A stretch of 64,000 nt of DNA from Spirochaetaceae bacterium (GTDB lineage Bacteria; Spirochaetota; Spirochaetia; DSM-27196; PWMO01). The notes beneath the pieces are model-generated. The model saw only the letters and a program-made list of their open reading frames with translations, was not told the DNA's origin and searched no databases. A program made the position numbers and the translations under genes. The stretch is from NCBI GenBank assembly GCA_007693485.1, contig REDM01000143.1, positions 5,803 through 69,802 on the forward strand, written 5' to 3'. Of this stretch, positions 45,755 to 48,172 are shown piece by piece (within the stretch, counting starts at the first letter, position 1; every line of letters begins with the position of its first letter).

Positions 45755-48172
45755 ATGAGAGCAGAAGAACGAATCATACCAGCCGTTCGAGAACAGATGA
45801 AGCGCGCGATAGCAGACGCGGATGGGAACGAAGTGCTCTTTGTTGCCTCCCTGGATAGCGTCGGCATGATCGATACGGTCACCGTCCCCGCTCATGGACA
45901 CCAGACCGCGGTCGCCGCCCCACCTGTGCACACCGAGCGGGGCGACGTAGTGATTCACAATCATCCCTCGGGGGTTCTCACTCCAAGCGATGCCGATATC
46001 CAGGTTGCCGCCCAACTTGCCGCGGGAGGTATTGGGTCGTTCATTGTGGACAACGCGGTTGAGCGGCTGGTCGTTGTCGTGGAGCCCGTTCGCCGCCGAG
46101 CTCTGCAGCCGCTGGATGTTGATGCTCTTTGCGAGGTACTTGGACCGGGAGGGGCCTTGAGCCGCCTTCACCCCGGATACGAGCCACGCGATTCGCAGGT
46201 GCGGATGCTCTCTGTGGTGGCTGAATCGTTTAACGAAGCGCAGATTGCGGTGGTGGAGGCGGGAACCGGAACGGGAAAGTCGTTTGCCTATCTGATTCCC
46301 GCGCTCGCGTGGGCGGCGAGCAACGAGGAGCGAGTGGTGATCTCCACCGCAACGATCACCCTGCAACAGCAACTGATTGAGAAAGATATCCCCGAGGTGC
46401 AGAAGATTCTTGGTACGAGCGAGAAGGCCGTTCTGGTGAAGGGAAGGGGCAACTACCTGTGCCCCTTACGCCTGTCGGAGGCAATTGACGAAGAGGGGCT
46501 GCTGGGAATGGGCCGGGACTCGCTGGCCGCGCTGCGGAAGTGGTCGGATGAAACACCCACGGGGAGCAAGAGTGAGCTGCCCTTTCCGGTAAGCGAAGCG
46601 GTCTGGAGTCGCGTGAATTCGGACCCCGACGCATGTACCGGTATGCGCTGCCGACAGCAGGTAAACTGCTTCGTGATGCGCGCCCGACGCGAGGCGGCCG
46701 CCGCTCGCATCCTGGTTGCCAACCATCATCTACTCTTTGCCGATCTTGCGCTGCGCATCCGCGGCGTCGGCTTTGATCAAGCCGCGGTGCTTCCACCTTT
46801 TCAGCGTCTCATCATCGACGAAGCTCACACCATGGAGCAGAGTGCCACCTCGTACTTCTCTCACGCGTTCTCGCGCCACTCGATCGCGCGCTCCTGCGCG
46901 CGGCTCTATCGCTCGGTGGGCACGCGATCATTTGGGTTGTCGATACTGCTCGAGCAGCTTGGTGCCAACCAGTGGAGCGAGCTTCCGGGCATGATCGATT
47001 CGGTTCATGCCGCCGCGGACGTACTGAACGCAGTGGCGCTTGCCGGGGATGGTTCTTCGCGCCGGCTGCCGATGGACATCGACTCCGAAACACGGGCACG
47101 GCTCAACCGGGAGATGGATGAGGTGCGTTCGCGGATTCTGCTGCTGACCGACTACGTCTCAGTACGCATTCGAGGTCTGAGTGACGACGACCGCGACCGT
47201 CCAGAGGTGCATGAGACCCGTCAGATCGTACGCAGGCTTCAGGAGGTGGCAACGCTCTGTGAGCGCATCGCTCACTGCGAAGATGACCCCAAGACGGTCT
47301 ACTGGTTGGATCGGCGCCCGGGGGGTGGCGATCCCTTCGTTCGCTTTGTCGGAACCCCGGTGGAGATCGGACCGGTTCTCACGGAAGCGGTCTACGAACC
47401 GTTTGAAACGGTGGTGTGTACCAGCGCGACACTGAGCGTTGATGGATCGTTTGCCTACTGGGCGGAGCGTGTCGGTCTGGACGGAGCCGATTCCCAACGC
47501 GTGCGATTCGCCTCGTTGCCGTCGCCGTTTCGGTTTGACCGCCAGGTTCTGCTTGCCGCCCCCACCGACGCGCCCGCACCTGAATCCGGTGACTACCTTG
47601 CGTTTCTGTCGCGCTTCGTGACCGAGGTATTGGAACTTTCTGAAGGAAGTGGCCTGGTGCTCTTTACCTCGTACGGTATGCTGGACGCCGTCTATGCTGC
47701 AGTGCACCCGAACCTTTCGGCCGCAGGGATCACGGTCCTGCGCCAGGGTGACGATGACCGCAGTCGACTGCTTCGGGCCTTTACCGCCGACACGTCGAGC
47801 GTACTGTTTGCAACCGACAGCTTCTGGGAGGGCGTCGACGCTCCGGGGCAGACCTTGCGCGTGGTCGTAATCTGTCGGCTGCCCTTTCGCGTGCCGACCG
47901 ATCCGGTACTGCGGGCGCGGATGGACCTGCTGACGAGCCGAGGCGAGAGCGCGTTTGCCCGTCTATCGCTTCCCGAAGCAGTCATTCGTCTGAAACAGGG
48001 CTTTGGCCGACTGATGCGGCGCGCCGACGATCGGGGAGTTGTGATCGTCACCGATTCGCGCATCGTATCCAAGCCCTACGGCGCGCTCTTTGTTTCGTCC
48101 CTTCCGCAGACGGCACAGTCGATCAAGTCATCGCAGGCCATTCTGGAGGATATCGAGCGGTTTCTGTGGTGA
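45755..48172 (+). CDS. dinG: DinG/XPD-family ATP-dependent helicase with an N-terminal RadC-like JAB/JAMM domain
   Basis: Residues 1-115 contain E26 and HNHPSGVLTPSDAD (HxHx7Sx2D). Then Walker A AGTGTGKS, a 4-Cys cluster region (C..C..C..C), DEAH box IIDEAH, and helicase C-terminal motifs. Confidence 0.85.
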   Translation: MRAEERIIPAVREQMKRAIADADGNEVLFVASLDSVGMIDTVTVPAHGHQTAVAAPPVHTERGDVVIHNHPSGVLTPSDADIQVAAQLAAGGIGSFIVDNAVERLVVVVEPVRRRALQPLDVDALCEVLGPGGALSRLHPGYEPRDSQVRMLSVVAESFNEAQIAVVEAGTGTGKSFAYLIPALAWAASNEERVVISTATITLQQQLIEKDIPEVQKILGTSEKAVLVKGRGNYLCPLRLSEAIDEEGLLGMGRDSLAALRKWSDETPTGSKSELPFPVSEAVWSRVNSDPDACTGMRCRQQVNCFVMRARREAAAARILVANHHLLFADLALRIRGVGFDQAAVLPPFQRLIIDEAHTMEQSATSYFSHAFSRHSIARSCARLYRSVGTRSFGLSILLEQLGANQWSELPGMIDSVHAAADVLNAVALAGDGSSRRLPMDIDSETRARLNREMDEVRSRILLLTDYVSVRIRGLSDDDRDRPEVHETRQIVRRLQEVATLCERIAHCEDDPKTVYWLDRRPGGGDPFVRFVGTPVEIGPVLTEAVYEPFETVVCTSATLSVDGSFAYWAERVGLDGADSQRVRFASLPSPFRFDRQVLLAAPTDAPAPESGDYLAFLSRFVTEVLELSEGSGLVLFTSYGMLDAVYAAVHPNLSAAGITVLRQGDDDRSRLLRAFTADTSSVLFATDSFWEGVDAPGQTLRVVVICRLPFRVPTDPVLRARMDLLTSRGESAFARLSLPEAVIRLKQGFGRLMRRADDRGVVIVTDSRIVSKPYGALFVSSLPQTAQSIKSSQAILEDIERFLW

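What the first reader, a model, noticed from the sequence alone, without database searches (positions are those of the whole stretch)
45755..48172. RadC-type JAB/JAMM metalloprotease domain fused to a DinG/XPD-family Fe-S helicase
Residues 1-115 contain the complete JAMM signature read from the sequence: a Glu in GNEVLFV and HNHPSGVLTPSDAD (HxHx7Sx2D, nt 45956-45997). This is the RadC-like variant. It continues without interruption into a DinG-type helicase with AGTGTGKS, a four-Cys cluster region (YLCPLRL...CTGMRCRQQVNCF), DEAH (IIDEAH) and C-terminal helicase motifs. Known DinG N-terminal fusions are DnaQ-like exonucleases. RadC has long been linked to DNA repair without a defined activity. 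A covalent fusion suggests the JAB domain acts on a protein-DNA or peptide-modified substrate met by the translocating helicase, for example DNA-protein crosslinks or a ubiquitin-like tag.
Basis: partly seen in the sequence, partly recalled or inferred. Interest (0 to 1): 0.65.

Follow-up and report, generated by a model that had tools for sequence, protein, structure and literature searches.

The report
RadC-like JAB domain fused to DinG helicase
This spirochaete gene really does join a small zinc-hydrolase (JAB/RadC-type) domain to a DinG-type iron-sulfur DNA helicase, but this fusion was described in 2011 and named "RadC-like DinG" in 2025, and what the small domain cuts has never been tested.

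Summary
ORF 45755-48172 (+) encodes one 805-aa protein. Residues 1-115 form a RadC-type JAB/MPN+ domain with E26 and H68-x-H70-x7-S78-x2-D81. The rest is a complete DinG/YoaA-type SF2 helicase with Walker A, four Fe-S cysteines, DEAH and motif VI.

It is not a frameshift artefact. More than 100 full-length orthologues exist, and 68 intact fusions were found among 74 genomes from many phyla. The catalytic residues are invariant across them.

The fusion is not new. Iyer et al. 2011 (PMC3239186) reported RadC-JAB/DinG fusions explicitly in spirochaetes and inferred that the JAB replaces the 3'-5' exonuclease of sister DinG proteins and so acts as a nuclease. Cheng 2025 (PMC11981726) named the subgroup "RadC-like DinG" and noted that nobody has studied it experimentally.

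New here:
- The JAB subfamily occurs almost only on DinG helicases.
- It extends to Gemmatimonadota, Acidobacteriota, Nitrospiraceae, Sumerlaeota and Halanaerobium.
- It has no conserved operon partner and no ubiquitin-like or E1 neighbour.
- It is absent from the plasmid and phage collections.

Novelty: already known. Interest: low to moderate.

The parts
45698..45725 (+). Promoter-like site (TTCCCA, 16-nt spacer, TATACT) 30 nt upstream of the start codon, in the 108-nt gap from the divergent asd gene
   Evidence: Consensus scan only, 9 of 12 matches. Function not shown.
45755..48172 (+). Complete coding sequence of the RadC-like DinG protein (805 aa plus stop)
   Evidence: Orthologues of 48-92% identity; about 100 of the 120 listed cover 100% of the query.
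45755..46099 (+). N-terminal RadC-type JAB/MPN+ domain, residues 1-115
   Evidence: Pfam PF04002 above cut-off. PDB RadC 2QLC at E=7e-4 by sequence and as top Foldseek match. Model pLDDT 89.6.
45830..45832 (+). E26, the predicted general-base glutamate of the JAMM site
   Evidence: Invariant in 103 orthologues and present in 69 of 70 sequences across phyla.
45956..45997 (+). HNHPSGVLTPSDAD, the H68-x-H70-x7-S78-x2-D81 zinc-binding and catalytic motif
   Evidence: Read from the sequence. Invariant in 103 of 103 and 70 of 70 sequences. Present in 74 of 74 genomic loci.
46100..46174 (+). Conserved linker, residues 116-140, joining the JAB domain to helicase motor domain 1
   Evidence: Aligns without gaps across orthologues. 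L125 and G133 are nearly invariant.
46259..46282 (+). Walker A / motif I, AGTGTGKS, residues 169-176
   Evidence: G170, T171, G172, G174, K175 and S176 are invariant.
46460..46669 (+). Fe-S cluster domain bounded by C236 and C305 (C236, C294, C299, C305)
   Evidence: All four cysteines are invariant in 93 orthologues. This matches the CCCC pattern that defines the DinG/XPD Fe-S domain (PMC11981726).
46817..46828 (+). DEAH box / motif II, residues 355-358
   Evidence: D355, E356, A357 and H358 are invariant.
46862..47359 (+). Arch domain, approximately residues 370-535, mostly long helices (boundaries approximate)
   Evidence: Secondary structure of the full-length model. The overall superposition on E. 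coli DinG 6FWR and XPD supports the assignment. This is the least conserved part of the alignment.
47624..48109 (+). Motor domain 2 (Pfam Helicase_C_2, residues 624-785), including motif VI QGFGRLMR at 47996-48019
   Evidence: PF13307 at 150 bits. Q748-R755 are invariant apart from M754, which is nearly invariant, at 90% or more.
48219..48238 (-). GC-rich hairpin followed by a T-run on the minus strand, between the convergent DinG and groES genes. It is a terminator for groES and possibly works in both directions.
   Evidence: Consensus scan. Function not shown.

Best explanation
The gene encodes a chromosomal, housekeeping-type member of the published 'RadC-like DinG' subgroup. Its C-terminal ~680 residues form a 4Fe-4S DinG/YoaA-type SF2 helicase. 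By homology this part binds ssDNA and uses ATP to translocate 5'->3' and unwind DNA. This step is inferred from strong homology and from an intact set of motifs. A ~115-residue RadC-type JAB domain with a complete Zn-hydrolase site (E26, H68, H70, S78, D81) is attached to the N-terminus of motor domain 1. That is the position occupied by a DnaQ-like 3'-5' exonuclease in the closely related ExoDinG proteins. The most likely working model is a helicase-coupled hydrolase. The motor exposes or delivers a DNA-linked substrate, and the JAB site cuts it during replication or repair. I favour the published reading that the JAB processes nucleic acid, acting as a nuclease or end-processing activity that substitutes for the exonuclease of ExoDinG. 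This would be useful in organisms reported to lack the YoaA partner HolC. My estimates are: identity as RadC-like DinG, about 0.95; active helicase, about 0.85; catalytically active JAB, about 0.8; the bond cut is in nucleic acid rather than peptide, only about 0.4 against 0.3. The chemistry is inference, not shown.
For: Identity: Pfam RadC plus Helicase_C_2. YoaA and DinG are the best NCBIfam models. PDB sequence hits are DinG 6FWR at 1e-41 and S. aureus ExoDinG 8ZEF at 7e-40. The full-length model (pLDDT 87.7, pTM 0.81) superposes on DinG, ExoDinG, XPD and CasDinG. The JAB model matches RadC 2QLC and then MPN+ enzymes. Selection: all helicase motifs, the four cysteines and the JAMM residues are invariant in 93-103 orthologues and, for the JAMM residues, across phyla. 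The fusion is the rule: of 74 loci, 68 are intact fusions, 1 runs off its contig and 4 are fragmented by frameshifts, 2 of them with helicase pieces clearly following in other frames. Of the 149 fetched top representative clusters for the JAB domain, 121 continue into the helicase. Literature: positional equivalence with the 3'-5' exonuclease of sister DinG proteins supports the nuclease inference (PMC3239186; PMC5512222). The subgroup definition, the YoaA-like core and the reported absence of HolC come from PMC11981726. Housekeeping context: the gene sits between asd and groES, has no match in plasmids or phages and shows only lineage-specific synteny.
Confidence: 0.85

Rival explanations
1. 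The JAB domain is a genuine metallopeptidase or isopeptidase. It removes protein or peptide adducts that the translocating helicase meets on DNA, such as DNA-protein crosslinks or covalent end-bound proteins, or it removes a ubiquitin-like tag from a DNA-bound protein.
For: The JAMM catalytic set E...HxHx7Sx2D is complete and invariant. Apart from RadC, the closest solved structures are all Ubl/ubiquitin isopeptidases: CsRpn11 6FNO, AF2198 1OI0, PfJAMM1 5LDA, AMSH, Rpn11 and CSN5. The acidic surface fits a protein substrate better than naked DNA.
Against: No Ubl, E1-like or E2-like gene lies near the gene in the window or in 74 loci. Prokaryotic JAB-Ubl systems are typically operonic (Iyer et al. 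2006, as cited in PMC3239186). RadC-type JABs are argued to lack the ubiquitin-tail groove (PMC5512222). Sister DinG proteins carry nucleases at the same position (PMC3239186; PMC11981726). No experimental link between RadC and crosslink repair turned up in the literature search.
Confidence: 0.3
2. The JAB domain is not catalytic here. It serves as a structural, regulatory (for example auto-inhibitory) or protein/DNA-binding module on the helicase, as proposed for fusobacterial versions that have lost their zinc ligands.
For: Iyer et al. 2011 report inactive versions in some fusobacteria and suggest a DNA-binding role there. Non-catalytic MPN- domains are common scaffolds, which is established knowledge for Rpn8, CSN6 and Prp8.
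Against: All metal ligands plus the general-base Glu and the Ser are invariant in 103 orthologues. In 70 sequences across phyla they are invariant too, except E26 at 69 of 70. Such conservation is hard to explain without catalysis.
Confidence: 0.1
3. The fusion is an assembly or sequencing artefact that joins two genes, or only the helicase is made from an internal start.
For: The window comes from a metagenome. One close homologue, P0001, is annotated as starting at residue 16.
Against: The ORF is continuous. About 100 of the 120 listed orthologues cover 100% of the query, and in the 19-sequence alignment shown in full there are no gaps at the junction. There are 68 intact fusions in independent genomes of several phyla. 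The first 15 residues are conserved among orthologues. Residues 1-115 are under strong amino-acid constraint.
Confidence: 0.01
4. It is part of an anti-phage defence or CRISPR type IV system, that is, a CasDinG-like helicase.
For: PADLOC typeIV_DinG models match at up to 417 bits. Many DinG-like helicases act in defence (PMC11981726).
Against: The matches cover only the generic helicase core. The neighbours are asd, lysC, groES, a sigma factor and PPDK, with no cas genes. Synteny is stable within lineages. There is no hit in plasmids or phages. Four Fe-S cysteines are present, whereas CasDinG has a pseudo-FeS domain.
Confidence: 0.03

Closest known systems
RadC-like DinG subgroup (Cheng 2025, PMC11981726), the same architecture as the RadC-JAB/DinG-RAD3 fusions of Iyer, Zhang, Rogozin and Aravind 2011 (PMC3239186)
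   Same: Same domain order (N-terminal RadC-like JAB, then MD1 / 4-Cys FeS / Arch / MD2), same catalytic E, HxH and D residues, and a YoaA-like core. Spirochaetes are explicitly listed as hosts: Spirochaetales and Brachyspirales in 2025, 'spirochaetes' in 2011.
   Different: Nothing essential, so this is another orthologue. My scans extend the host range to Gemmatimonadota, Acidobacteriota/Terriglobia, Nitrospiraceae, Sumerlaeota and Halanaerobium. They also show that the JAB subfamily is almost confined to this fusion.
ExoDinG (DnaQ-like 3'-5' exonuclease plus DinG, e.g. S. aureus DinG, PDB 8ZEF/9II8; NCBIfam PRK08074, TIGR01407)
   Same: Closely related helicase core (471 bits to PRK08074; Foldseek E=3e-30). 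A hydrolase domain sits at the same N-terminal position.
   Different: The N-terminal domain has an unrelated fold (JAB/deaminase-like rather than RNase H-like) and an unknown substrate. The profile matches cover only the helicase part.
E. coli YoaA (Fe-S helicase that works with HolC/chi)
   Same: Best-scoring NCBIfam model (561 bits over residues 127-791). It shares four Fe-S cysteines and a similar size of core.
   Different: The score is below the equivalog cut-off of 680. This protein has an extra JAB domain. Organisms with RadC-like DinG are reported to lack HolC (PMC11981726), which I did not test here.
Canonical RadC / YicR (HhH plus JAB; PDB 2QLC; PF04002, TIGR00608)
   Same: Same JAB fold and the HNHPSG...PS..D motif. 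2QLC is the closest solved structure.
   Different: There is no HhH domain. Only 26 residues match the Pfam model, at 24.1 bits. The NCBIfam RadC models score far below cut-off (24.5 against 180; 19.6 against 133.85). A whole-library HMMER search with the domain returns only 566 clusters, and the top clusters examined are nearly all DinG fusions. It is therefore a separate JAB subfamily.
JAMM/MPN+ isopeptidases (Rpn11, CSN5, AMSH, PfJAMM1, CsRpn11, bacterial BubCD)
   Same: Same fold and the E...HxHx7Sx2D zinc site.
   Different: This is a minimal domain with no associated ubiquitin-like protein or conjugation genes. The literature argues that RadC-type JABs lack the Ub-tail groove (PMC5512222). 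Sequence identity is only 9-18%.

Membership tests
RadC-like DinG (Cheng 2025) / RadC-JAB-DinG fusion (Iyer et al. 2011) | N-terminal RadC-like JAB domain with conserved E, HxH and D | tested here: met
   E26, H68, H70, S78 and D81 are invariant.
RadC-like DinG (Cheng 2025) / RadC-JAB-DinG fusion (Iyer et al. 2011) | DinG/YoaA-like SF2 helicase core (MD1, MD2, Arch) in the same polypeptide | tested here: met
   The ORF is continuous. The full-length model has pTM 0.81.
RadC-like DinG (Cheng 2025) / RadC-JAB-DinG fusion (Iyer et al. 2011) | FeS domain with a CCCC motif | tested here: met
   C236, C294, C299 and C305 are invariant.
RadC-like DinG (Cheng 2025) / RadC-JAB-DinG fusion (Iyer et al. 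2011) | Host lineage among those reported (spirochaetes) | tested here: met
   All named close homologues are Spirochaetia. The best genomic loci are Treponematales and Spirochaeta.
RadC-like DinG (Cheng 2025) / RadC-JAB-DinG fusion (Iyer et al. 2011) | Absence of HolC (chi) in the genome | not testable with these tools
   Only a 64-kb window of a metagenomic genome is available.
JAMM/MPN+ metallo-isopeptidases | E...HxHx7Sx2D motif on an MPN fold | tested here: met
JAMM/MPN+ metallo-isopeptidases | Association with a ubiquitin-like substrate or conjugation genes (Ubl, E1, E2) | tested here: not met
   No such neighbour in the window or among clustered neighbours of 74 loci.
JAMM/MPN+ metallo-isopeptidases | Groove (Ins-1 region) that binds the Ubl C-terminal tail | not testable with these tools
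The literature states that RadC-type JABs are unlikely to have the groove (PMC5512222).
JAMM/MPN+ metallo-isopeptidases | Demonstrated (iso)peptidase activity | not testable with these tools
   Requires biochemistry.
Canonical RadC (YicR; PF04002, TIGR00608, PRK00024) | Score above the family's curated threshold | tested here: inconclusive
   Pfam gives 24.1 bits against a 22.1 cut-off, so it is met, but only over 26 residues. NCBIfam gives 24.5 against 180 and 19.6 against 133.85, so those are not met.
Canonical RadC (YicR; PF04002, TIGR00608, PRK00024) | [quoted passage not shown] | tested here: not met
   The JAB starts at residue 1 and there is no HhH hit.
YoaA (NCBIfam NF053712 equivalog) | Score at or above the 680-bit cut-off | tested here: not met
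   561.3 bits.
ExoDinG (DnaQ exonuclease plus DinG) | N-terminal DnaQ-like 3'-5' exonuclease domain | tested here: not met
   Matches to TIGR01407 and PRK08074 start at profile positions 244-248, so they cover the helicase only. The N-terminus has a JAB fold.
CasDinG (type IV CRISPR) | Location in a type IV cas locus, with a pseudo-FeS domain | tested here: not met
   Neighbours are housekeeping genes. Four Fe-S cysteines are present. The PADLOC hits cover only the generic helicase core.

The most novel reading that the evidence does not exclude
The DinG-specific JAB subfamily is a helicase-coupled metallopeptidase. It would clip covalent protein or peptide adducts, such as DNA-protein crosslinks or end-bound proteins, off the strand on which the Fe-S helicase translocates. 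That would give bacteria a one-polypeptide counterpart of eukaryotic helicase-assisted crosslink proteolysis, and it would give a RadC-type JAB its first defined activity.
Probability: 0.2. Interest if true: 0.8.

Novelty: already known. Interest (0 to 1): 0.3.

Why it matters
RadC-type JAB domains are among the most widespread bacterial domains that still lack a demonstrated activity. This fusion ties one such domain physically to a well-understood 5'->3' Fe-S helicase, so it is a good entry point for biochemistry. That argument was already made in print in 2011 and 2025, so the present window adds one more orthologue rather than a discovery. The incremental points from this work may help whoever takes up the experiment. 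The JAB subfamily is almost exclusive to DinG. It is chromosomal, with no conserved partner genes. Its catalytic site is invariant across at least seven bacterial phyla. It is abundant in Gemmatimonadota and is also present in Geobacter and Geotalea genomes and Treponema MAGs.

Tried and rejected
- Frameshift or assembly artefact: rejected by the continuous ORF and by conserved full-length orthologues. Four fragmented genomic copies (L052, L055, L064, L070) are broken by frameshifts and are not evidence of natural split genes; in L055 and L064 helicase pieces clearly follow in other frames.
- Conserved operon partner: I clustered all ORFs within about 6 kb in 74 loci. Only lineage-restricted synteny appeared. 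In Gemmatimonadota the neighbours are an unannotated secreted protein, a TPR protein, a fumarylacetoacetate hydrolase and an aminotransferase. In Spirochaetia they are a sigma factor and PPDK. None relates to DNA or ubiquitin-like systems.
- Stand-alone versions of this JAB subfamily: of the top 149 representatives, 28 do not reach the helicase. Nearly all of these are short fragments or carry out-of-frame tails. P0241, P0250 and P0256 have unrelated tails and could be stand-alone or chimeric; I did not resolve them.
- Mobile-element or defence origin: no tblastn hit in plasmids or phages, and the PADLOC hits are generic.
- Expression evidence for the start codon: only DNA metagenome runs (soda lake) contain the sequence, and there are no RNA runs.
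- Literature: a search for an experimentally defined RadC activity or a RadC-crosslink link found nothing relevant. A whole-word 'RadC' search was swamped by the radiology term rADC.
- Structure: I could not read model coordinates, so the orientation of the JAB site relative to the DNA channel and the surface electrostatics were not assessed.
- Genome-wide checks: absence of HolC and presence of a separate canonical RadC or ExoDinG in the same genome could not be checked from a 64-kb window.
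Full report
**Observation**

The window contains an uninterrupted ORF at 45755-48172 on the + strand (ATG start, 805 aa).
- E26 in GNEVLFV (nt 45830-45832)
- HNHPSGVLTPSDAD, which is H68-x-H70-x7-S78-x2-D81 (nt 45956-45997)
- Walker A AGTGTGKS (residues 169-176)
- four cysteines (C236, C294, C299, C305)
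- IIDEAH (residues 353-358)
- C-terminal helicase motifs, including QGFGRLMR (residues 748-755)

Pfam reports a RadC-like JAB match that is short but above threshold (PF04002, 24.1 bits against a 22.1 cut-off, residues 65-90). It also reports a strong Helicase_C_2 match (150 bits). NCBIfam places residues 127-805 closest to YoaA (561 bits) and to DinG/ExoDinG models, all below their equivalog cut-offs.

**Structure**

An AlphaFold2 model of residues 1-125, built on 103 homologues, is confident (pLDDT 89.6, pTM 0.82). Its best Foldseek match in the PDB is the RadC crystal structure 2QLC. After that come only JAB/MPN+ enzymes: CsRpn11, AF2198, BubCD, AMSH, Rpn11, CSN5 and PfJAMM1. A sequence search of the PDB also finds 2QLC (E=7e-4).

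The full-length model (pLDDT 87.7, pTM 0.81) superposes on E. coli DinG-ssDNA (6FWR, E=1e-39), S. aureus ExoDinG, XPD and CasDinG. By sequence, the helicase part hits DinG 6FWR at 1e-41.

**Is the fusion real and selected?**

A search of 5.8 billion proteins returned more than 100 proteins of about 810 aa at 48-92% identity, most of them covering 100% of the query. Where they are named, they come from Spirochaetia, for example Salinispira pacifica and Sediminispirochaeta smaragdinae. Alignments of 19, 93 and 103 sequences were made; the one shown in full, with 19 sequences, has no gap at the JAB-helicase junction. They also show invariant E26, H68, N69, H70, P71, P77, S78 and D81, together with all helicase motifs and the four cysteines.

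A scan of one genome per species returned 74 loci. All 74 retain HNHP-x7-S-x2-D.
- 68 encode an intact protein of at least 740 aa with a DEAH box (63 also match the strict Walker A pattern).
- 1 runs off its contig.
- 4 are fragmented by frameshifts; in 2 of them helicase pieces clearly follow immediately in other frames, and in a third the helicase ORF overlaps the JAB ORF.

In a 70-sequence alignment across phyla, H68, N69, H70, P71, S78, D81, G48 and N100 are present in 70 of 70 and E26 in 69 of 70.

An internal start used only for the helicase cannot be excluded directly. The sequence occurs only in soda-lake DNA metagenomes, with no RNA runs. However, the strong constraint on residues 1-115, including the first 15 residues, shows that the domain is translated.

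**Prior knowledge**

The architecture is not new.
[quoted passage not shown] They noted that these helicases are closely related to versions carrying a 3'-5' exonuclease in place of the JAB. [quoted passage not shown]
- The same group restated this in 2017 (PMC5512222) and added that RadC-type JABs probably lack the ubiquitin-tail groove.

The protein in the window is one more orthologue in a lineage already named.

**What this analysis adds**

1. An exhaustive HMMER search of 1.84 billion representative proteins with residues 1-125 found only 566 clusters at E<=1e-3 (369 at E<=1e-10). Of the 149 fetched top clusters, 121 continue into the helicase. The other 28 are mostly short fragments or carry out-of-frame tails. 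This JAB is thus a distinct subfamily that is almost confined to DinG fusions. It is not a canonical RadC: there is no HhH domain, and the NCBIfam RadC models score far below cut-off.
2. The host range extends to Gemmatimonadota (about 30 of the 74 loci), Acidobacteriota/Terriglobia, Nitrospiraceae, Sumerlaeota, Halanaerobium and PVC/Planctomycetes. It also includes Spirochaetota (with Brachyspira and Treponema) and the Geobacter/Desulfuromonas group.
3. Clustering all neighbouring ORFs in the 74 loci found no partner conserved across phyla, only lineage-specific synteny. No ubiquitin-like, E1 or E2 gene was found.
4. In the window the gene stands alone between the divergent lysC-asd pair and a convergent groES. 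It has a promoter-like site 30 nt upstream, and housekeeping genes lie all around.
5. The domain has no tblastn match in 72,556 plasmids or 50,697 phage records. PADLOC matches cover only the generic DinG core.
6. The JAB domain is strongly acidic, with a median net charge of -8 over 93 homologues.

**Mechanism**

What is supported by strong homology: the C-terminal ~680 residues are an intact 4Fe-4S DinG/YoaA-type helicase. Such helicases bind ssDNA and translocate 5'->3', which is established for DinG and XPD. The JAB domain has an intact zinc-hydrolase site.

What is inferred: the motor presents a DNA-linked substrate to the JAB site, which hydrolyses it. The bond cut is unknown.
- I give a slight preference (about 0.4) to nucleic-acid processing. 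Sister DinG proteins carry DnaQ-like, PD-(D/E)xK or HNH nucleases. The JAB occupies the exonuclease's position. RadC-type JABs recur in ssDNA contexts (HhH, primase, ArdC). No ubiquitin-like partner exists.
Every characterised JAB enzyme is an (iso)peptidase, the whole peptidase catalytic set is retained, and the domain is acidic.
- A non-catalytic role is unlikely (about 0.1), given the invariant ligands.

**Verdict**

The finding is a correct rediscovery of a published but experimentally untouched architecture. Novelty: already known. Interest is about 0.3. The underlying open question, what RadC-type JAB domains do, is real, and this fusion is a good handle on it, but that point is already in the literature.

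Noticed in passing
window 48299-48565 (-): groES (Cpn10, 88 aa) stands alone. The sequence downstream of it on the minus strand is the convergent DinG gene, so no groEL follows it, unlike the usual groES-groEL operon. A sigma-70-family factor (48864-49778) and pyruvate phosphate dikinase (49921-52587) follow on the + strand. Similar sigma-factor and PPDK-region ORFs recur downstream of the fusion gene in several other Spirochaetia loci (clusters 11 and 12).
   Followed up: partly
window 52776-52848 (-): tRNA-Phe (GAA), the only tRNA in the 64-kb window, lies between PPDK and a FliG-type flagellar motor switch gene (52931-54175).
   Followed up: no
window 38925-42758 (+): Three overlapping + strand genes: a DNA polymerase III delta'-like protein with a TTG start (38925-40163), a PAS histidine kinase (40147-41322) and a sigma-54-dependent response regulator (41319-42758). 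The 17-nt and 4-nt overlaps suggest one operon that links a clamp-loader subunit to a two-component system.
   Followed up: no
window 42745-45646 (-): Aspartate-semialdehyde dehydrogenase, aspartate kinase and a small 163-aa DnaJ-domain protein overlap by 4 nt each on the minus strand. This apparent asd-lysC-J-domain operon is divergent from the DinG gene.
   Followed up: no
L052, L055, L064, L070: In these MAG loci the RadC-like DinG gene is broken by frameshifts. In L055 and L064 it is split into several out-of-frame pieces, in L052 into two ORFs, and in L070 the helicase ORF overlaps the JAB ORF. These look like assembly or sequencing errors or pseudogenes rather than natural split genes.
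   Followed up: partly
P0241, P0250, P0256: Three representative proteins carry this JAB subfamily followed by tails unrelated to DinG. They could be rare stand-alone or differently fused versions, or chimeric contigs.
   Followed up: no
Gemmatimonadota loci, e.g. L022:4685-5980, L028, L040, L047, L065: An unannotated ~430-aa protein with a signal-peptide-like N-terminus and no Pfam hit lies immediately upstream of the fusion gene, abutting or overlapping it by a few bases. Upstream of it lie a TPR protein and a ~930-aa coiled-coil protein. This may be lineage-specific co-transcription of unknown meaning.
   Followed up: partly
L004, L037, L054, L059, L066: The longest possible ORFs place the JAMM motif at residue 200-365 instead of about 68. 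This is probably over-extension of the ORF upstream in high-GC DNA rather than a real N-terminal extension, but I did not check it.
   Followed up: no
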